DNA from: Escherichia coli
Lineage (GTDB): Bacteria; Pseudomonadota; Gammaproteobacteria; Enterobacterales; Enterobacteriaceae
Reading direction: 5' to 3' (one strand)
Assembly: GCF_024700885.2 (NCBI RefSeq)
Contig: NZ_CP117016.1
Length of the DNA: 64,000 bases
Shown here: in pieces, positions 7,754-58,555 of the stretch
How positions within the stretch are numbered: the first letter of the stretch is position 1
How the letters are laid out: every line of letters begins with the position of its first letter
Position numbers and translations under genes: made by a program
The notes under the pieces: generated by a model
Told to the model about the DNA's origin: nothing
Seen by the model: only the letters and a program-made list of their open reading frames with translations
Databases searched by the model: none

Positions 7754-8633
7754 TCACACACTGCCACTGGCCCATTGCGCCATGCCCGGCACATATCAGT
7801 CACAGAGCCTTTCGGGGATAATTTGCAGAGTGGTCTGGCTGACTTTCTCTGTAGGCAGATCGTTCCCGCTTGATAGCTCATCCCCCAAAGAAACGTCACG
7901 ATATTTGGTATTTTCAAAATTCAAAAAGAAAACCCGCAGAGTGGCAACAGAGATTAAAAAGTTTGAGAAACGCGATCTGGCACAGGCGGTGATTGGTGTT
8001 GGAGTGATGGTAGATTTTATCAGCCGGATAATGTCGGTTCTGGCTGATAGCTGGGGTTGTTGGTGTGGTCTTCCTATTGATGAAAAAACAAGCAATTACT
8101 TGGCATATTATCTGTAACACTTTAAAACTGTTAAGAAGATCACAATTCATTATGTTTATTATTGTCTGGCCGGAGGGATATTTGTTAAAAAGTGCGCCGT
8201 GTGGTGAATCCCCCTGTGCGGTGGGGCGACTGGTGTACATAGCATTTATTATGTTATGAGCGAAGCCTACGCGGGTTCAGTGACACCGACTGAATTCACC
8301 GGGAGGCACCCGGCACCATGCAACAGACGCAAGTTAGGCTAAGCCTTATACCCCTGTAAGTTTTTTACAGGGTTTTTTTGTGCACAGAAAACCCCCAGCT
8401 AGGCTGGGGGGGCCGGAAAGCTTTCAGCTTTGAGCCAGTTATTAAAACTCTGAACCGGTTCCTGGCACGAATATCATTCCCGGCCTGCGCTTTGATTATC
8501 TCAGCGACTCCGGCGGGAACTTCAGCCGCAGTCTGAATCTTTCGCAGGAATTGGGCGATTATTTCAAAGTCAAAGCAGGGGTTGCCCGAACCTTTAAAGC
8601 CCCAAACTGTACTGACCCCAAAAAGTTGGACAG

Positions 8634-41023: not shown

Positions 41024-43455
41024 TCCAGCCCCATCGCCCGCAAATGCTCGGCCACTTTCTCGCTCAACGCCTCAACGGAGGCTTCAAGCGCTAGCAACGG
41101 TTCAGCATAACGCTCTTCCAGCTCCTTTACGCGCGACGCCAGTTGCTGGGTAATACGCTCAATCTCCGCCTTGATCCCTGCCTGCAACGTTGCCAGCCAC
41201 TTATCCTGCACTACCAGCGTTTTAATCGCTGCTTCATCCAGCGTGGGATAATGTTTAAACACCGCCCGATCCAGCGCTTCTTGTGCGGCTTTCAGCGCTT
41301 TTTTCGCACTGGCTTCGGCCTTAATTAGCGCCAGGCAGCGGTTCAGCACTGCCAGCTCATCTGGGCCGGCAGTGGTTTTCTTTAACTGTGCTAGACGGGC
41401 ATTCACCAGCTTTTGCGTCACCTTATCTTTATCGTTCTTCGCCTCGGCCAGCAGATCCTCTTCACCTGCCTGCTCCTCGATGAATTCCACTAGCTGACGA
41501 CTGGCTTCTTCACTGCGCTCCTGCGCGCGGTTCAGCGCATCCAGCAGTTCCGGGAAACAGCGAATTTCCACCAGCGAACGGGGCAGCACATCGGCCTTGT
41601 AGCGCCGTTTGGTAAACTCGAAATCGTGCGTTTCTTTCCAGATGTTTTTGCCATCTTTGCCTTTCACCGGCTGAAGCTCGCGGATTTGCGCGGCGGCTTG
41701 CCAGCCATCCTGCATAATCGCATACACATCGTCTTGCATGACATCAGTCCAGTAATCCATCAGGATCTGGTACACGCTGTATTTGTTCAGCAACTCACTG
41801 TTGGCGTACTGCGCCAATAGCATTTCGCTGATATCGTGGATTAGCGCTTTGGGTTTATCACCTTTGCGAATCTCTTCCAGACTTGCCTCTTTCACCCACG
41901 CTTTAAACGGTAGCAGGCTGCGGGTGGCAAAATCCTTAAACTCCTGATGCGCCAGAATGGTCGGTTTCACCTGTTGCGCGTTCACCTGCGCCCGACAGTA
42001 ACCGGGACGGTCGTCAGCAAACAGCACGTTGCGCAGGGCAGGGAATACCCGCCAGTAATCTTGCAAAGCATCCACATCGCGTGCCGGAATACCGCCCTGT
42101 AAGTGCGCGGTCAGATCGTGTAAATCTTCCGGCTCGCCGCTCTCGATATAGCGAGGAATATTCAGGTTGTAATCATTTCCGGCGATCTCGCTGGAGGGCA
42201 CCATCCGGCTGTAGCCAGGTACCGTTCGCTGATGGTTGAACACGTCCACAATGCGGTGAATATCTCGGCTACGCAGGCGGTTCTTGTTGCCATCTTTGAT
42301 AAAGCCCCGGCTGGCGTCGATCATAAAAATGCCTTTGCGGCTGTGGGCGTGCTCTTTATCAATCACAATGATGCACGCCGGGATGCCGGTGCCGTAAAAC
42401 AGGTTGGCTGGCAAACCAATAACGCCTTTGATATAGCCCTGCTTGATTAGATTTTCACGGATATTCGCTTCGGCGTTACCGCGAAACAGTACGCCGTGGG
42501 GCAGGATCACCGCGCCTTTGCCGGTACTTTTCAGGCTTTTAATGATATGCAACAAAAAAGCATAATCGCCGTTTTTTTCCGGCGGAATACCCCAGCCGAA
42601 GCGTTCAAACGGATCTTTTTTCGGCGTCAGCCCGTTGGTCCAGTTTTTATTGGAAAAAGGCGGGTTCGCCACGGCAAAATCGAAGGCTTTCAGTTTGCCG
42701 TTCGCCTCTTTCCACTGCGGATCGCTCAGCGTATTGCCCTGCCAGATTTTCGCGGTGGCATTGTTATGCAGAATCATGTTCATCCGCGCCAGCGCACTGG
42801 TAGCGTTATCCATCTCCTGGCCGAAAATCGACAGTCCGCGCCGGGCTTCATCATTCACTTTCAACAGCAGCGAACCAGAGCCACAGGTTGGGTCATAAAC
42901 CGTTGCATCTTGCGGAGTATCGGGAGTAATACCAATCACCTTCGCCAGAATACGTGACACCTCCGCTGGAGTGTAAAACTGCCCTTTACTCTTACCGGAT
43001 TCGGTTGCGAAGTGACGCATCAGATATTCATAGGCATCGCCCAGCAGATCGTCGCCTTCGGCCCGGTTGCTGGAGAGATTTAACCCTTCAAAGATACCGA
43101 CAAGCTTGCTCAGGCGGTCAATCATTTCCTTGCCTTTGCCGAGCTTATCTTCGTCGTTAAAGTCGGCTTCGTCGATGACGCCCTTCAGGCCGTTCTCTTC
43201 CGCCAGCTTGTGGATGATTTTGTTGATTTTGTCGCCGATCTCTTTGTCATTTTTCAGCGCAACCATATCGTCAAAGCTGGCTCCTTTGGGTATCACGATC
43301 ATCCCGTAAGGATCGCCTTTATACTTATCGGAAACGTACTTCATAAACAGCAGGGTCAGTACATAGTCTTTGTACTGGCTGGCGTCCATCCCGCCACGCA
43401 GTTCGTCGCAGCTTGCCCACAGGGAAGAATAGAGTTCGGTTTTTTTGATAGCCAT
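41017..43455 (-). CDS. hsdM: Type I restriction-modification DNA methyltransferase (HsdM) with long C-terminal coiled-coil-rich extension
   Basis: 812-aa; N6-adenine MTase motifs YDPTCGSGSLL (motif I) and VANPPFS (motif IV); C-terminal ~300 aa Ala/Glu/Lys/Leu-rich. Confidence 0.8.
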   Translation of the reverse strand: MAIKKTELYSSLWASCDELRGGMDASQYKDYVLTLLFMKYVSDKYKGDPYGMIVIPKGASFDDMVALKNDKEIGDKINKIIHKLAEENGLKGVIDEADFNDEDKLGKGKEMIDRLSKLVGIFEGLNLSSNRAEGDDLLGDAYEYLMRHFATESGKSKGQFYTPAEVSRILAKVIGITPDTPQDATVYDPTCGSGSLLLKVNDEARRGLSIFGQEMDNATSALARMNMILHNNATAKIWQGNTLSDPQWKEANGKLKAFDFAVANPPFSNKNWTNGLTPKKDPFERFGWGIPPEKNGDYAFLLHIIKSLKSTGKGAVILPHGVLFRGNAEANIRENLIKQGYIKGVIGLPANLFYGTGIPACIIVIDKEHAHSRKGIFMIDASRGFIKDGNKNRLRSRDIHRIVDVFNHQRTVPGYSRMVPSSEIAGNDYNLNIPRYIESGEPEDLHDLTAHLQGGIPARDVDALQDYWRVFPALRNVLFADDRPGYCRAQVNAQQVKPTILAHQEFKDFATRSLLPFKAWVKEASLEEIRKGDKPKALIHDISEMLLAQYANSELLNKYSVYQILMDYWTDVMQDDVYAIMQDGWQAAAQIRELQPVKGKDGKNIWKETHDFEFTKRRYKADVLPRSLVEIRCFPELLDALNRAQERSEEASRQLVEFIEEQAGEEDLLAEAKNDKDKVTQKLVNARLAQLKKTTAGPDELAVLNRCLALIKAEASAKKALKAAQEALDRAVFKHYPTLDEAAIKTLVVQDKWLATLQAGIKAEIERITQQLASRVKELEERYAEPLLALEASVEALSEKVAEHLRAMGLEW

Positions 43456-43494
43456 TAAATATCTCGTTTTGCGCGATAATGTGCCGTAAGTCGG

Positions 43495-43800
43495 TTACAG
43501 CAGATCGGTATTCAGACCGGCGGCCTTTAACCGATGGGTTAAGTTACGCATTTTGCTGAATTCGGTACCGAGGCTCTGGTTCAGACCAGTGCCTTCGCAA
43601 AAGGCTTTTGCCGTAATGTGTTCCAGTTTGTCGGCATATTTAATCATTTGCAGGTGCAGCTCGACGGTGTACTGGTTACGAGGCGCACTGGAAAGTGCCT
43701 GCCGGATATGGCGATAAATCTCGTCTTCATTCATATTCATGGCAACCACTGGTATAATAGATAAGTTAGCTAAATTAGCTAAATGTGGTATCAGGTTCAA
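43495..43800 (-). CDS. Small hypothetical protein directly upstream of hsdM (possible regulator)
   Basis: 81-101 codon ORF, same strand, 40 bp upstream of hsdM; tandem TTAGCTAAA repeats just upstream of it. Confidence 0.35.
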   Translation of the reverse strand: MNLIPHLANLANLSIIPVVAMNMNEDEIYRHIRQALSSAPRNQYTVELHLQMIKYADKLEHITAKAFCEGTGLNQSLGTEFSKMRNLTHRLKAAGLNTDLL

Positions 43801-44732
43801 GAACTACAGTGGGAGTCGGATTTGACTGCGCGATTTATGCACGTAAATGCCTTGTGGCGGATTAATGGCCGCAGTATCTTCTCCTTCCGCGCCTGCAAAA
43901 TCAGGCGTCGGGATTAGCTTCCTGAAAACCGTTACAGGAGACTTCTCTATGACTACAATCCTTGTCCCTGACTGCGATTTACTCGATCTATTGTTCGTTT
44001 CCTTATAATGTCACTATGGATTTCACCGCCTTGGTCGACAACTGCGCCCACTTCGTCGAATCCCTGATAGAAACCGAGGATCCCGCGCTGTGGCTTACCC
44101 TCTGCGGGCGACATTGTACTGCTGCAACCCACGCCGACCTCATCCCGCCGCATTTTACCGAAAGCCTGCTCAGTGATACTCTCCCCACCATGCCAGATCA
44201 GGTTATTTCTGAACCTGATTCTTGTGCGAATATTGCCTCGTGCGGGCTGTGCATCATCGCCGCTCTTTGATAAGAGGCGTCAAAGGTAAGGGGCGTAGCG
44301 TTATTAGTTTGGGCTATACACTTGCGCTACAACTCTTCAAATAGCTATATATCAACAATATTTAGCCATAAACCGTCTACTTCCGTCTCAATTATACTCA
44401 AATTAAGGCATGCGGCATCTTTGTGACACATTTGTTTTTTTGATACAGGTTAGAGTTGACCTGCTCTCCGTTGATTAACTCACATTGTTGTTAACCACGT
44501 CTACTTTTAGCACGACACTGATGCGTTAACTGAGCGAATGGTCTGCTTTGAGCGAGGAACGGACATTACTAACAGCATTCTGTGTGAATCACCAGGGAGC
44601 AGGTCAGCGCCACTACTCTATATAATCGCTAACGATGACAAGTATAATTATATAAGTCTTTGCCCTTAGCTTTTGGATAAAATTGTTGAAGTTTCACGAA
44701 AATAATGATAAACAAAAACAGTAGCAATAATT

Positions 44733-45677
44733 ATGGATTTAATTATGGAATGGAGATTTTTAGGTTCTCTATCAGAGGCCAGGAAATCTGGCTGTAGCGG
44801 AGTTTATCTTATTGTCCATAAAGGACTTTTCAGTCGTGTGGTTTACGTTGGGGTAAGTTGTAATGTAGGTAGAAGGATAACCGAACATTACGACGGTTAT
44901 CTTAGAGGAAATCGAACAATTTACGACGCTGGTCACGACGAAGACGTTTATCGCTTCATGTCAGCTTATAAAATTCATAACCACACAAAATACTATCAAG
45001 CCTTGGCGAATGATTATAAGATATGGGCATCTACCACAATGTATTCTGATTTGCCGAAAAACATGCTAGCAAAAAGCCAAACCTTTGATACTGATTGGCA
45101 GAGCATTGCATTAGAAAAATATATTCCTCAACTGGTAGTATGGGCCCTTCCAATGGCAAAGTACTGTTATTCAAATGCAAGCAGGATTGAAAGTGTAATC
45201 CAATCAAAGCTCATTAAATCTTTTGATTTGAGAGGTTTTTTTAATATAAAGCAATTAAGCATATTGGGTAAAATTGAATATCCCTATATGGAAAAGGTCA
45301 AAGTTTTCATTATTAACACACCTGATTTAGACCCGGCATCCCAGCTTATTTTTAGCAATCTATATAACAAAAAAACTGATAACAACTTCTGTAAAGAGTT
45401 CCGTTCACAATTTAAAAGCGAGATTTTTCAGAGGGAAAGTGAAACTCAGAGAAAGCGAACTATCAGGGAGCATAAGGTATCTCTTTATGAAAATTATGGC
45501 AAGCCTTGGACTTTAAAGGAAATGGAAAAACTTAGAGTCATGCTTGTCGATTTTGATTTGTCCCCGATAGAAATATCTGAGTATCTAGGAAGAGAGCCGC
45601 GCTCTATATCTAAAAAAATAAGCGAAAATGATAAAGTTACTAATTATAAATGGCGAGAGAGCGTCGGCTGGTTGTGA
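44733..45677 (+). CDS. Hypothetical protein with N-terminal GIY-YIG-like nuclease motif and C-terminal HTH-like region
   Basis: 314-aa AT-rich ORF; GVY-x12-YVG-x5-GRRITEH pattern near N-terminus; C-terminal …WTLKEMEKLRVMLVDFDLSPIEISEYLGREPRSISKKI… resembles a sigma-r4/LuxR-type HTH. Confidence 0.5.
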   Translation: MDLIMEWRFLGSLSEARKSGCSGVYLIVHKGLFSRVVYVGVSCNVGRRITEHYDGYLRGNRTIYDAGHDEDVYRFMSAYKIHNHTKYYQALANDYKIWASTTMYSDLPKNMLAKSQTFDTDWQSIALEKYIPQLVVWALPMAKYCYSNASRIESVIQSKLIKSFDLRGFFNIKQLSILGKIEYPYMEKVKVFIINTPDLDPASQLIFSNLYNKKTDNNFCKEFRSQFKSEIFQRESETQRKRTIREHKVSLYENYGKPWTLKEMEKLRVMLVDFDLSPIEISEYLGREPRSISKKISENDKVTNYKWRESVGWL

Positions 45678-45892
45678 CGTTACGTTTTGATTGAAATAAC
45701 CCCCATTTTGCAAAGTCCGCTCTTGGCACAGAGCGGACTGTCAGATGAGGTTTAGTTCTGTACTAATGAGCCGATACAAATTAGCTGCATATACCTGCAT
45801 TCCAAATAATTTTAGGCAGATATTATCTCCGTGAGTCCCCCGCCACTTTTCCGGTGCGCGGGGTTTTGTCTTTTTTCACCGGGAATACATGT

Positions 45893-46765
45893 ATGAATCC
45901 GTCTGATGCCATTGAGGCAATTGAAAAACCGCTCTCCTCCCTGCCTTACTCACTTTCCCGTCACATCCAGGAACATCTGCGCAAACTCACCAGTCACGAA
46001 CCCGTGATTGGCATTATGGGTAAAAGCGGGGCCGGTAAATCCTCACTCTGTAATGCACTGTTTCAGGGGGAGGTCACCCCGGTCAGTGATGTTCACGCCG
46101 GCACCCGGGAAGTGCGGCGCTTCCGTCTGAGTGGCCACGGTCACAGCATGATTATCACTGACCTGCCCGGGGTGGGCGAGAGCCGGGACAGGGATGCAGA
46201 GTATGAAGCCCTGTACCGTGACATTCTGCCTGAACTTGACCTGGTACTGTGGCTGATTAAAGCCGATGACCGTGCCCTGTCTGTGGATGAGTATTTCTGG
46301 CGACACATACTGCACCGGGGACATCAGCAGGTGCTGTTTGTGGTGACGCAGGCCGACAAAACGGAGCCCTGCCATGAATGGGATATGGCCGGCATTCAGC
46401 CTTCTCCCGCACAGGCACAGAACATTCGGGAGAAAACGGAGGCGGTATTCCGTCTGTTCCGGCCCGTACATCCGGTTGTTGCCGTATCGGCCCGCACCGG
46501 CTGGGAACTGGATACGCTGGTCAGTGCGCTAATGACAGCACTTCCCGACCATGCCGCCAGTCCCCTGATGACCCGCCTGCAGGACGAGCTGCGCACGGAA
46601 TCTGTCCGCGCTCAGGCCCGTGAACAGTTTACCGGTGCGGTGGACCGGATATTTGACACGGCGGAGAGCGTCTGTGTTGCCTCTGTTGCCCGTACGGTTC
46701 TGCGTGCCGTCCGTGACACGGTGGTCTCTGTTGCCCGCGCTGTATGGAACTGGATTTTCTTCTGA
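45893..46765 (+). CDS. YeeP/YkfA/YfjP-family GTPase (CP4-like island protein)
   Basis: P-loop GKSGAGKSSL and G-domain motifs; immediately upstream of Ag43 as in CP4-44-like modules. Confidence 0.65.
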   Translation: MNPSDAIEAIEKPLSSLPYSLSRHIQEHLRKLTSHEPVIGIMGKSGAGKSSLCNALFQGEVTPVSDVHAGTREVRRFRLSGHGHSMIITDLPGVGESRDRDAEYEALYRDILPELDLVLWLIKADDRALSVDEYFWRHILHRGHQQVLFVVTQADKTEPCHEWDMAGIQPSPAQAQNIREKTEAVFRLFRPVHPVVAVSARTGWELDTLVSALMTALPDHAASPLMTRLQDELRTESVRAQAREQFTGAVDRIFDTAESVCVASVARTVLRAVRDTVVSVARAVWNWIFF

Positions 46766-47137
46766 ACACTCTGCCAGGGGAAATGCCTGATTACATTGCG
46801 TTAACCAACTGAAAACATGATACAAACACTCCATCCCCCTCCTGTTTCTCTTGCGTGACTGCCCTGCTGTTAATAGAATAAAACGATCGATAAAACAGGT
46901 ATCGATCGTTACCATCGATCGTTTATAGTGGTTAATGGTCTGCGAAAAGGCAGCTGAATCTCTTCATCATGCAGAACGGAATTGCACACAACGGACTGAT
47001 ACTTCTCTGGCGGATGAGAGAGGGGAAGCATTTATGTCCGGGAAAAACCACTTTATCTGACCATGCTGTTTTGTACCTGCCGGTATCCACATTTGTGGGT
47101 ACCGGCTTTTTTATTCACCCTCTGTAAGGAAAAGCTG

Positions 47138-58467: not shown

Positions 58468-58555
58468 TGGCGGTGAGGGGGGGATTCGAACCCCCGATAC
58501 GTTGCCGTATACACACTTTCCAGGCGTGCTCCTTCAGCCACTCGGACACCTCACC
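58468..58555 (-). tRNA. serX: tRNA-Ser (anticodon GGA)
   Basis: 88-nt; reverse complement reads GGTGAGGTGTCCGAGTGGCTGAAGGAGCACGCCTGGAAAGTGTG…GGTTCGAATCCCCCCCTCACCGCCA with long variable arm; adjacent to ghrA as at the serX locus. Confidence 0.85.

What the first reader, a model, noticed from the sequence alone, without database searches (positions are those of the whole stretch)
43801..45677. Orphan GIY-YIG-like nuclease with C-terminal HTH-like tail, next to the defence operon
The 314-aa AT-rich gene at 44733-45677 starts with a GIY-YIG-type pattern (GVY…YVG…R…EH) and ends with a helix-turn-helix-like segment. It sits between the RM-DarTG operon and the CP4-like module after a ~930-bp coding-poor spacer. 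Its domain combination and location in a defence neighbourhood make it a candidate single-gene defence or homing-type nuclease that I cannot match to a named system.
Basis: partly seen in the sequence, partly recalled or inferred. Interest (0 to 1): 0.6.

Follow-up and report, generated by a model that had tools for sequence, protein, structure and literature searches.

The report
Solitary GIY-YIG nuclease with Myb-like tail
This is a real, intact, horizontally moving single gene for a DNA-cutting enzyme (GIY-YIG type) fused to a Myb-like DNA-binding tail; it often sits among anti-phage genes and is a good but untested candidate for a one-gene defence nuclease.

Summary
The 314-aa ORF at 44733-45677 is real, AT-rich, and conserved at full length across Gammaproteobacteria. 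[quoted passage not shown] Y25, Y38, G40, R48, H52, E153 and N171 are invariant, and Y38/G40/R48/H52 align to I-TevI Y17/G19/R27/H31. A ~90-aa family-specific insertion, a helical linker and a C-terminal Myb/SANT/GcrA-like three-helix domain follow.

No partner gene is conserved. In Vibrio the gene is a one-gene integron cassette. In E. coli (289 of 5,426 complete genomes) the same 1.2-kb unit lies in two unrelated elements: this tRNA-Ser island, and a Qin/Rac-like prophage next to a PD-T7-1 homologue. Eight of 14 independent contexts have recognised defence genes within 10 kb.

It is absent from 50,697 phage genomes and matches no named defence family beyond the ~35-aa catalytic core. NCBI already names the family "GIY-YIG nuclease family protein".

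Verdict: observation confirmed. The defence reading is plausible but unproven, and the homing reading is unlikely. It is a new variant of a known kind (nuclease plus DNA reader), of moderate interest.

Side finding: the module is bracketed by a conserved palindrome (R) and a motif (L). These border many other cargo modules and are REP-like, not defence-specific.

The parts
44733..45677 (+). CDS of the 314-aa GIY-YIG/Myb-like protein (stop included)
   Evidence: ORF list. Full-length homologues of 38-85% identity, with 49 invariant columns. Annotated as a CDS in RefSeq E. coli genomes.
44733..45332 (+). Residues 1-200: extended GIY-YIG nuclease domain. It has beta-strands 23-30 and 34-42, helix 45-57 carrying R48/H52, a family-specific insertion at ~58-133, strand 134-140, and helix 146-164 carrying E153, followed by N171.
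45333..45485 (+). Residues 201-251: helical linker, including the long helix 228-251
   Evidence: AlphaFold model, pLDDT 88-95. This is the least conserved stretch of the alignment.
45486..45674 (+). Residues 252-314: Myb/SANT/GcrA-like three-helix DNA-binding domain (helices 261-273, 278-285, 289-303). W259 and R287 are invariant.
44565..44732 (+). Upstream non-coding DNA that moves with the gene (presumed promoter and 5' UTR)
   Evidence: Identical to the copy in the unrelated prophage context, and partly conserved in Serratia, Salmonella, Brenneria and Leclercia. The strict sigma-70 scan found no consensus promoter here, so the promoter role is inferred.
44541..44564 (+). L motif GTCTGCTTTGAGCGAGGAACGGAC: left boundary of the module
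   Evidence: Homology to the prophage copy starts at 44529/44550. Homology to a strain with different cargo ends at ~44563. The same motif lies left of other cargo in L018, L020, L021, L022 and L027. It does not fold as a hairpin (z -0.05).
44499..44522 (+). Degenerate R-like palindrome (GTCTACTTTTAGCACGACACTGAT), 18 nt upstream of L
   Evidence: It aligns with the intact R site that precedes L in the prophage copy (L018 8971-8994) and in strain B1 and Serratia.
45715..45738 (+). R palindrome GTCCGCTCTTGGCACAGAGCGGAC: right boundary of the module, 38 nt after the stop codon
   Evidence: Homology to the prophage copy ends at 45738. Islands that lack the gene begin to match at 45708-45717. It forms a stable DNA hairpin, dG -10.8 kcal/mol, z -3.7. 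It is kept, with compensatory stem changes, after the orthologues in Brenneria and Serratia. It occurs in 2,115 of 5,426 E. coli genomes and always lies in unannotated intergenic DNA.
43876..43950 (+). Sub-threshold match to Rfam c4-a1b1 / isrK, inside the 'spacer' (island backbone, not part of the module)
   Evidence: cmscan: c4-a1b1 40.9 bits (gathering 46.7), E 3.6e-8; isrK 42.3 bits (gathering 50), E 4.9e-7. This stretch is shared with strain B1, which carries different cargo.

Best explanation
The gene encodes an active, stand-alone DNA endonuclease. The N-terminal 200 residues are a GIY-YIG catalytic domain with a full set of catalytic residues and a large family-specific insertion. A helical linker ties it to a C-terminal Myb/SANT-like three-helix domain that binds DNA and positions or licenses the nuclease.

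The gene travels as a self-contained 1.2-1.4-kb module, passive cargo in integrons, integrative elements, prophages and plasmids. Its most likely role is a one-gene nuclease defence that cuts incoming phage or other foreign DNA.

Shown: the gene is real and conserved; the two folds; invariant catalytic residues; solitary, mobile, patchy distribution; frequent defence neighbours; absence from phages.

Inferred: nuclease activity, DNA binding by the tail, the defence role, and how self DNA is spared. Because it survives as a lone integron cassette, it cannot need an antitoxin or a methylase partner. So discrimination must lie in the protein itself, through target modification, sequence or structure, or through autoinhibition.
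For: Fold and residues:
- Pfam GIY-YIG in 19/31 members.
- The N-core profile hits only GIY-YIG nucleases in the PDB, and aligns Y38/G40/R48/H52 to I-TevI Y17/G19/R27/H31.
- Y25, Y38, G40, R48, H52, E153 and N171 are invariant over sequences down to 38% identity.
- Model pLDDT 93.1, pTM 0.84.
- Tail is Myb/SANT/GcrA-like.

Autonomy:
- Identical promoterless single-gene cassette, bounded by attC-type repeats, at three different positions in Vibrio arrays.
- No shared neighbour across contexts.

Mobility:
- The same 1.2-kb unit at 99.3% identity in a CP4-like island (57 genomes) and a Qin/Rac-like prophage (180 genomes).

Defence association:
- Type I RM plus DarTG here.
- PD-T7-1 homologue in tandem, E 7e-157.
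- Thoeris ThsA/ThsB in Salmonella.
- TIR protein in Yersinia.
- AbiH in Aeromonas.
- BrxR plus an MksE-containing operon in Thalassotalea.
- BrxC/TerB-N/DEAD in Brenneria.
- RES/HEPN-RES/HNH in Undibacterium.
- Alternative occupants of the same slots include an annotated anti-phage dGTPase and PDC-S33.

Precedents: the single-gene GIY-YIG defence CMoRE/PD-T4-3 (PMC12923530) and the wH-GIY-YIG type IV enzymes (PMC11037411).

Not a phage gene: 0 of 50,697 phage genomes, 7 of 2.9 million viral contigs, no BFVD match at E<=1e-3.
Against: - No experiment exists for any family member.
- There is no match to any PADLOC family beyond the ~35-residue GIY-YIG core.
- Six of 14 contexts show no recognised defence gene: three solitary chromosomal insertions, the integron, and two plasmids.
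- The slot in E. coli islands also carries plainly non-defence cargo such as MFS/hydrolase/LysR, so a hotspot argument is weak.
- I computed no background rate for defence neighbours.
- Assigning E153 and N171 as the catalytic Glu and structural Asn rests on invariance and position in the model, not on a residue-level structural alignment.
- No consensus sigma-70 promoter was found upstream, and the low GC suggests possible H-NS silencing.
Confidence: 0.5

Rival explanations
1. A selfish, free-standing homing-type (or self-mobilising) endonuclease. The protein would cut a specific site in genomes that lack it, and its own gene would be copied in by repair, giving no benefit to the host.
For: The architecture (GIY-YIG, tether, HTH anchor) is that of I-TevI-type homing enzymes, and the best PDB sequence match is I-TevI. 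The gene moves as a compact 1.2-1.4-kb unit with its own flanks, and appears alone among housekeeping genes in Leclercia, Serratia and Kosakonia. Conserved palindromes lie at the unit's ends.
Against: - No conserved target flanks: left and right neighbours differ in every context.
- No intron association, and below the cut-off of the group I intron endonuclease model (15.1 against 56 bits).
- No NUMOD, IENR1 or zinc-finger modules.
- Absent from 50,697 phages, and no viral structural relative.
- 291 places in 289 E. coli genomes, so essentially single copy.
- The flanking R/L elements also flank many unrelated genes that have no nuclease, so they are not this protein's private sites.
- In Vibrio it moves by the integron machinery.
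Confidence: 0.12
2. A nuclease serving the mobile element that carries it rather than the cell. It might exclude or degrade competing elements (inter-MGE conflict), or process the element's own DNA during replication, excision or transfer.
For: It is always on or next to mobile DNA: ICE/IME with relaxase and T4SS genes, prophage early region, plasmids near partition and Hok genes, and a CP4-like island next to anti-restriction/RadC genes. A domesticated GIY-YIG-like nuclease is used in phage-satellite conflict in Vibrio (title and abstract of PMC8263062; I did not read the body).
Against: Element types are too diverse (integron, prophage, ICE, IME, plasmid, bare chromosome) for a role in any one element's life cycle. 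No element-specific partner is conserved. Exclusion of rival elements is mechanistically the same as defence and not separable with these data.
Confidence: 0.2
3. A DNA repair or structure-specific nuclease (UvrC/Cho/Slx1-like), or a DNA-binding regulator whose nuclease domain is secondary.
For: UvrC N-terminal domain is among the best structural and sequence matches. In Leclercia the gene lies next to dinI. Myb/GcrA-type domains are usually transcription factors.
Against: Patchy accessory distribution (5% of E. coli), low GC and carriage on mobile elements are not what a repair gene shows. There are no UvrC-type downstream domains. All catalytic residues are invariant, so the nuclease is not vestigial. 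It was disrupted by IS903B in one strain without evident consequence.
Confidence: 0.08

Closest known systems
I-TevI and related GIY-YIG homing endonucleases (I-BmoI, phage Seg proteins)
   Different: No intron and no phage host. It has a ~90-aa insertion inside the catalytic domain, and a Myb/SANT-like tail instead of the zinc finger/minor-groove helix/HTH set. It scores far below the TIGR01453 cut-off. There is no conserved insertion target.
CMoRE (= PD-T4-3), single-gene GIY-YIG type IV restriction enzyme (PMC12923530)
   Same: One polypeptide with an N-terminal GIY-YIG and a C-terminal DNA-sensing domain. It is found in E. coli accessory DNA and needs no partner.
   Different: CMoRE's hallmark GIYxY motif is absent (here GVYLI). 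There is no PADLOC PD-T4-3 hit and no sequence match to the deposited CMoRE chains. The C-terminal domain has a different fold class (Myb-like three-helix). I did not test for CMoRE's negatively charged autoinhibitory loop.
wH-GIY-YIG m6A-dependent type IV enzymes Ahi29725I/Apa233I (PMC11037411)
   Same: Fusion of a small DNA reader domain with a GIY-YIG nuclease, in a single gene.
   Different: The domain order is reversed (reader at the N-terminus there). Dam-dependent cutting would be lethal in Dam+ E. coli hosts, so the specificity cannot be the same.
GIY-YIG type II restriction enzymes Eco29kI and Hpy188I; T4 endonuclease II
   Different: No cognate methyltransferase travels with the gene. 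The neighbouring hsdM belongs to the type I operon and is absent in the other contexts.
PADLOC candidates PDC-S14 and Uzume (UzuA)
   Same: They share the GIY-YIG core. Weak HMM hits, E 1e-2 to 6e-6, limited to ~30-45 residues.
   Different: There is no alignment outside the core motif, so these are not the same family.

Membership tests
GIY-YIG nuclease superfamily (Pfam PF01541) | GIY and YIG motifs on two adjacent beta-strands | tested here: met
   G23-V-Y25 on strand 23-30 and Y38-V-G40 on strand 34-42. PF01541 is hit by 19/31 members at E<=1e-3.
GIY-YIG nuclease superfamily (Pfam PF01541) | Conserved Arg about 10 residues after YIG, then His/Tyr four residues later, on the first helix | tested here: met
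   R48 and H52 are invariant and align to I-TevI R27 and H31 in the HMMER alignment.
GIY-YIG nuclease superfamily (Pfam PF01541) | Metal-binding Glu and structural Asn in the C-terminal half of the domain | tested here: inconclusive
   E153 (in the helix after strand 134-140) and N171 are invariant and have the expected order and spacing. Their equivalence to I-TevI E75/N90 is inferred, because no residue-level structural alignment was available.
GIY-YIG nuclease superfamily (Pfam PF01541) | Three-stranded alpha/beta GIY-YIG fold | tested here: met
GIY-YIG nuclease superfamily (Pfam PF01541) | Metal-dependent phosphodiester cleavage | not testable with these tools
   Needs purified protein.
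GIY-YIG homing endonucleases (I-TevI type; NCBIfam TIGR01453) | Reaches the curated family score | tested here: not met
   15.1 bits against a cut-off of 56.05.
GIY-YIG homing endonucleases (I-TevI type; NCBIfam TIGR01453) | Lies in a group I intron, or free-standing at a fixed place in a phage gene cluster, with a conserved target in gene-less relatives | tested here: not met
   0 of 50,697 phage genomes. There is no intron at the locus (for 43000-46500; one search finds only group II intron domains, far away at 27-29 kb). Flanks differ in all 14 contexts.
GIY-YIG homing endonucleases (I-TevI type; NCBIfam TIGR01453) | Catalytic domain, flexible linker and C-terminal DNA-binding module | tested here: met
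   Domain layout from the model. The DNA-binding module is of a different type, Myb-like.
CMoRE / PD-T4-3 | GIYxY-YIG motif with a third tyrosine | tested here: not met
   The sequence is GVYLIVH, and position +2 after Y25 is I27 in 90% or more of members. The motif definition is from PMC12923530.
CMoRE / PD-T4-3 | Match to the family model or the solved chains | tested here: not met
   No PD-T4-3 hit in PADLOC. No CMoRE chain appears among the PDB hits of the 2026 copy.
Type II GIY-YIG restriction-modification (Eco29kI/Hpy188I type) | Cognate methyltransferase gene adjacent to and co-inherited with the nuclease | tested here: not met
   No methyltransferase lies within the 1.2-kb unit, and none is shared across contexts. 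As an integron cassette the gene is alone.
Integron gene cassette | Single promoterless ORF bounded by attC-type recombination sites, found at different array positions | tested here: met
   True for the Vibrio parahaemolyticus orthologue (61% identity): L011, L012 and L013. Not true for the copy in this window, which has its own upstream region and no attC.
Defence-island gene (guilt by association) | Homologues enriched next to known defence genes relative to background | tested here: inconclusive
   8 of 14 contexts have recognised defence genes within 10 kb. I computed no background rate, and the sample is small.

The most novel reading that the evidence does not exclude
The family is a new single-gene immune nuclease in which a Myb/GcrA-like three-helix domain selects foreign DNA for a GIY-YIG cutter. 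It might recognise a phage-type base modification or a sequence rare in the host.

A still more novel reading of the context is not excluded. The R palindromes that bracket this and many other modules could be core sites of the 200-aa, catalytic-domain-only Xer-like recombinase found between R and L sites. If so, this would be an unrecognised cassette-exchange system in enterobacterial mobile elements. I put that second reading at roughly 0.1.
Probability: 0.35. Interest if true: 0.6.

Novelty: new variant of a known kind. Interest (0 to 1): 0.45.

Why it matters
If it defends, it adds a compact, partner-free nuclease to the immune repertoire: 314 aa, one gene, already circulating as an integron cassette and in 5% of E. 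coli genomes. Its DNA-reader domain has not yet been linked to restriction, and it would be a possible reagent if the specificity turns out to be modification- or sequence-dependent. It is cheap to test.

The flanking R/L elements may also help explain how single defence genes are swapped in and out of prophage and island hotspots. If it does not defend, it is simply one more uncharacterised accessory GIY-YIG nuclease.

Tried and rejected
1. Single-sequence searches. Pfam, NCBIfam, PADLOC, PHROGs and PDB phmmer gave only marginal or chance hits. The full-length family profile against the PDB returned antibody heavy chains by chance. Only domain-level profiles worked.

2. The hairpin after the stop codon as this nuclease's own recognition or homing site. 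Rejected: the same palindrome flanks unrelated cargo without any nuclease, and occurs in 2,115 E. coli genomes.

3. R/L sites as a defence-specific cassette system. Rejected: in Pantoea, Enterobacter and Pseudocitrobacter they bracket hydrolases, LysR regulators, permeases and ferrochelatase, with 0 of 17 such cargo proteins hitting PADLOC. In alphaproteobacterial MAGs they are REP-like intergenic repeats.

4. R-rich arrays in non-enteric MAGs as ordinary integron attC sites. No attC-type R boxes were seen, and the genes between sites are large transporters.

5. E. coli ST38 island against the Leclercia chromosome as an empty/occupied pair. The MFS-hydrolase-LysR block is orthologous (71-77% identity), but homology stops at the LysR stop codon, so no junction could be read.

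6. CMoRE/PD-T4-3, Uzume and PDC-S14 membership. Not met.

7. Consensus promoter upstream of the gene. None found by the strict scan.

8. Literature search for the R sequence. Only a chance primer match.
Full report
**1. Observation**

The ORF at 44733-45677 (+) exists, starts with ATG and encodes 314 aa. It lies in a low-GC patch: 0.35-0.39 over about 44250-45750, against 0.47-0.60 on both sides. The window is E. coli.

To the left are a type I RM operon with embedded darT/darG (HsdR, DarG, DarT, HsdS, HsdM) and a small HTH-like gene. To the right are a YeeP-like GTPase, Ag43 and a CP4-44-like module. That module holds anti-restriction, RadC/JAB and YeeU/CbtA genes and ends at tRNA-Ser(GGA), 58468-58555.

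**2. The protein: the single sequence is weak, the family is strong**

Alone, the sequence gives only marginal GIY-YIG hits:
- Pfam E 0.017 over residues 22-62.
- TIGR01453 at 15 bits against a cut-off of 56.
- PDC-S14 at E 0.0075.
- Nothing in the PDB.

The protein belongs to a compact family. There are 72 clusters at 90% identity and 62 representatives at 50% identity among 1.84 billion proteins. Members are full length (~310 aa) in Enterobacterales, Aeromonas, Plesiomonas, Vibrio, Photobacterium, Pseudoalteromonas, Thalassotalea and Undibacterium. NCBI and JGI already call many members 'GIY-YIG nuclease family protein'.

In a 31-sequence alignment (38-85% identity) 49 columns are invariant. 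They include Y25, Y38, G40, R48, H52, E153 and N171. Scanned one by one, 19 of 31 members hit PF01541 at E<=1e-3 and all 31 at E<=0.1.

A profile of the first ~68 residues, built from 32 diverse members, returned eight PDB sequences. All eight are GIY-YIG nucleases: I-TevI (E 1e-4), UvrC, T4 endonuclease II and Hpy188I. In the alignment, 'YVGtstniakRlkeH' pairs with I-TevI 'YVGSAKDFEKRWKRH'. That maps Y38/G40/R48/H52 to I-TevI Y17/G19/R27/H31.

**3. Structure**

AlphaFold2 on the family alignment gave pLDDT 93.1 and pTM 0.84.

| Comparison | Result |
|---|---|
| Foldseek vs AFDB50 | Only uncharacterised 'GIY-YIG domain-containing' proteins, including ~200-aa bacterial and archaeal forms without the tail |
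| Tail-only profile vs PDB | Myb-like domains: DMTF1 E 0.006, Cdc5L, c-Myb |
| Tail members vs Pfam | Myb_DNA-bind_6 (10/30), HTH_38 (6), GcrA (5) |

The layout is:
- GIY-YIG domain, residues 1-200, with a ~90-aa insertion between the R/H helix and the third strand.
- Helical linker, residues 201-251.
- Myb/SANT-like domain, residues 252-314.

Relatives swap the tail. P0099 carries a different ~290-aa C-terminus, P0074 has an extra N-terminal domain, and P0133 is an array of the Myb-like repeat alone. That modularity is typical of nuclease-plus-reader proteins.

**4. It is a solitary, mobile module**

No neighbour is conserved.

| Organism | Context |
|---|---|
| Vibrio parahaemolyticus | Promoterless one-gene integron cassette. 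An attC-type repeat ends just before the RBS and another starts 6 nt after the stop. The identical cassette sits at three different array positions. |
| Salmonella | Integrative mobilisable element with Thoeris (ThsA-Macro, ThsB-TIR) and another TIR gene |
| Yersinia | Integrative element, directly after a TIR-domain gene |
| Brenneria | ICE, near BrxC/TerB-N/DEAD-helicase genes |
| Aeromonas | Next to AbiH |
| Thalassotalea | 40 bp after a BrxR-headed operon that includes an MksE-like gene |
| Undibacterium | Among RES, HEPN-RES, HNH and AAA/S8 genes |
| Leclercia, Serratia, Kosakonia | Alone among housekeeping genes |
| E. coli IncFIA plasmid, Photobacterium conjugative plasmid | Accessory regions, no obvious defence neighbours |

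That makes 8 of 14 contexts with recognised defence genes within 10 kb. I computed no background rate.

**5. Within E. coli**

The gene is in 289 of 5,426 complete genomes, at >=99% identity in 286 of them, and essentially always as a single copy.
- 57 genomes share this window's context.
- 180 carry it in the early region of a Qin/Rac-like prophage at rspB. There it follows a 449-aa gene that matches the validated defence system PD-T7-1 at E 7e-157.

The two contexts share only window 44529/44550-45738, at 99.3% identity. So a 1.2-kb unit (upstream region, gene, downstream palindrome) has moved recently between unrelated elements. One strain has the gene split by IS903B.

The gene is absent from 50,697 phage genomes by tblastn. 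It is present in only 7 of 2.9 million IMG/VR contigs, six of them ~100% identical to the E. coli copy. It has no BFVD structural match at E<=1e-3.

**6. What it most likely does**

All catalytic residues are invariant, so the nuclease is under selection. The Myb-like tail on a helical tether should bind DNA and place or license the cutter. This is how I-TevI works (established knowledge).

The gene persists as a lone integron cassette and in bare chromosomal sites, so it needs neither methylase nor antitoxin. Self/non-self discrimination must therefore lie in the protein's own specificity or regulation.

My estimates:

| Explanation | Confidence |
|---|---|
| One-gene defence nuclease against incoming DNA | 0.5 |
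| Element-serving or inter-MGE-conflict nuclease | 0.2 |
| Selfish homing-type enzyme | 0.12 |
| Repair or regulatory role | 0.08 |

The balance covers inactivity or something unforeseen.

**7. Comparison with known systems**

It is a member of the GIY-YIG superfamily: motifs, the R/H helix and the fold were tested and met. The Glu/Asn assignment is inferred.

It is not a member of any of these:
- The I-TevI homing family: below cut-off, no intron or phage, different DNA-binding modules.
- CMoRE: it has GVYLI, not GIYxY, and no model or PDB match.
- Type II GIY-YIG RM: no methylase travels with it.
- Uzume or PDC-S14: only the ~35-aa core aligns.

I could not find the GIY-YIG plus Myb/SANT-like combination in the searchable literature.

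**8. Side finding: the module's borders**

The unit is bracketed on the right by a perfect 9-6-9 palindrome, R (45715-45738, GTCCGCTCTTGGCACAGAGCGGAC; DNA hairpin z -3.7). On the left is a related motif, L (44541-44564), preceded by a decayed R-like copy.

The same L...cargo...R layout surrounds other cargo:
- The PD-T7-1 cassette in the prophage.
- A RelA/SpoT gene (PDC-S33) in another prophage.
- ParA plus two genes in strain B1, on the same hsdM backbone.
- Sets that include an annotated anti-phage dGTPase (strain C311) or a DUF4365 gene (L025), and several genes in CFT073. In the ST38 island only the R site was found, next to MFS/hydrolase/LysR.

Islands that lack the nuclease begin to match exactly at R, and strain B1 stops matching exactly at L. 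In Yersinia the sites form a polar array across the TIR gene, the GIY-YIG gene and two further genes.

A 200-aa, catalytic-domain-only Xer-like tyrosine recombinase lies between an R and the next L in several loci. Sites are co-oriented in 63 of 72 multi-site loci.

However, R and L are not defence-specific. In Pantoea, Enterobacter and Pseudocitrobacter they bracket hydrolases, LysR regulators, permeases and ferrochelatase. The same 24-mer occurs as a REP-like intergenic repeat in alpha- and betaproteobacterial MAGs.

I therefore treat R/L as a REP/BIME-like repeat family that marks, and perhaps mediates, module exchange. It is not evidence about the nuclease's function. It has no Rfam family, and the sequence has no literature hit. 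What recognises it is open.

**9. Verdict**

This is a genuine, well-conserved, partner-free GIY-YIG nuclease with a Myb-like tail. It is already labelled at superfamily level, is functionally uncharacterised, and is a reasonable and easily testable defence candidate. It is a new variant of a known kind. Interest 0.45.

Noticed in passing
window 45715-45738 (R), 44541-44564 (L), 44499-44522 (decayed R); also L018 4800/8971/9013/10187, L020 1811/3504, L021 5126/7885, L022 1740/1782/2796/6008, L027 9697/9738/12825/12867: A conserved 24-nt palindrome, R (GTCCGCTnnTGGCACArAGCGGAC), and a related motif, L, bracket variable cargo modules in E. coli islands and prophages, sometimes as R-18 nt-L junctions in polar arrays. 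R is in 2,115 of 5,426 E. coli genomes, across Enterobacterales, and even in alpha- and betaproteobacterial MAGs. In other genera it flanks ordinary genes, so it behaves like a REP/BIME-type repeat. It has no Rfam family, and the sequence is not in the searchable literature.
   Followed up: partly
L018 6388-6990(-), L022 3864-4466(-), L023 4535-5137(-), L049 6116-6715(-), L138 2168-2767(-), L026 736-1335(-): A 200-aa tyrosine recombinase consisting only of the catalytic domain. It is Xer/integron-integrase-like (E 1e-15 to XerA) and has the R...HxxR...H...Y residues. It recurs inside the R/L-bounded slots, and in three loci it lies exactly between an R site and the next L site. Whether it acts on R is unknown.
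   Followed up: partly
window about 44565-45714 (slot upstream of the YeeP-like GTPase gene 45854-46765); compare L021, L022, L023, L024, L025: The slot just upstream of the GTPase gene of CP4-like islands is a variable cargo site. In other strains it holds an annotated anti-phage dGTPase, ParA plus two unknown genes, a DUF4365 protein, or an MFS/hydrolase/LysR set.
   Followed up: partly
L018 7308-8657 (E. coli Qin/Rac-like prophage at rspB) and L020 2066-3091: The prophage slot between hokD and the DUF977 gene carries a PD-T7-1 homologue (E 7e-157) in tandem with the GIY-YIG module. In another strain it carries a RelA/SpoT-domain gene matching PADLOC candidate PDC-S33 (E 5e-119). This looks like a prophage defence hotspot.
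   Followed up: partly
window 43876-43950 (+) and ORF 44016-44270 (+): The 'spacer' contains sub-threshold Rfam matches to c4-a1b1 (targets of the P1/P7 C4 antisense RNA) and isrK. An 84-aa ORF called by PGAP follows, with no family match. This resembles a phage-type antisense immunity region. It belongs to the island backbone, not to the nuclease module.
   Followed up: no
window 27235-27314 (-) and 28751-28830 (+), flanking ORF 27704-28675 (+): Two above-threshold Rfam group II intron domain matches, in opposite orientations, on either side of a 323-aa ORF.
   Followed up: no
window 46883-47119 (+) and 8169-8383 (+): Rfam gathering-level matches to IS102 RNA (just upstream of the Ag43 gene) and to sRNA STnc100.
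   Followed up: no
proteins P0074, P0099, P0133 (relatives): Relatives show domain shuffling. P0074 has a 127-aa N-terminal extension, P0099 replaces the Myb-like tail with an unrelated ~290-aa domain, and P0133 is a 471-aa array of the Myb-like repeat alone.
   Followed up: no
NZ_CM128586.1 4579675-4583341 (hit H1): In E. coli strain 300444 the gene is split by an IS903B insertion. PGAP then names both halves 'GIY-YIG nuclease family protein', while it calls the intact gene 'hypothetical protein' in most genomes.
   Followed up: no
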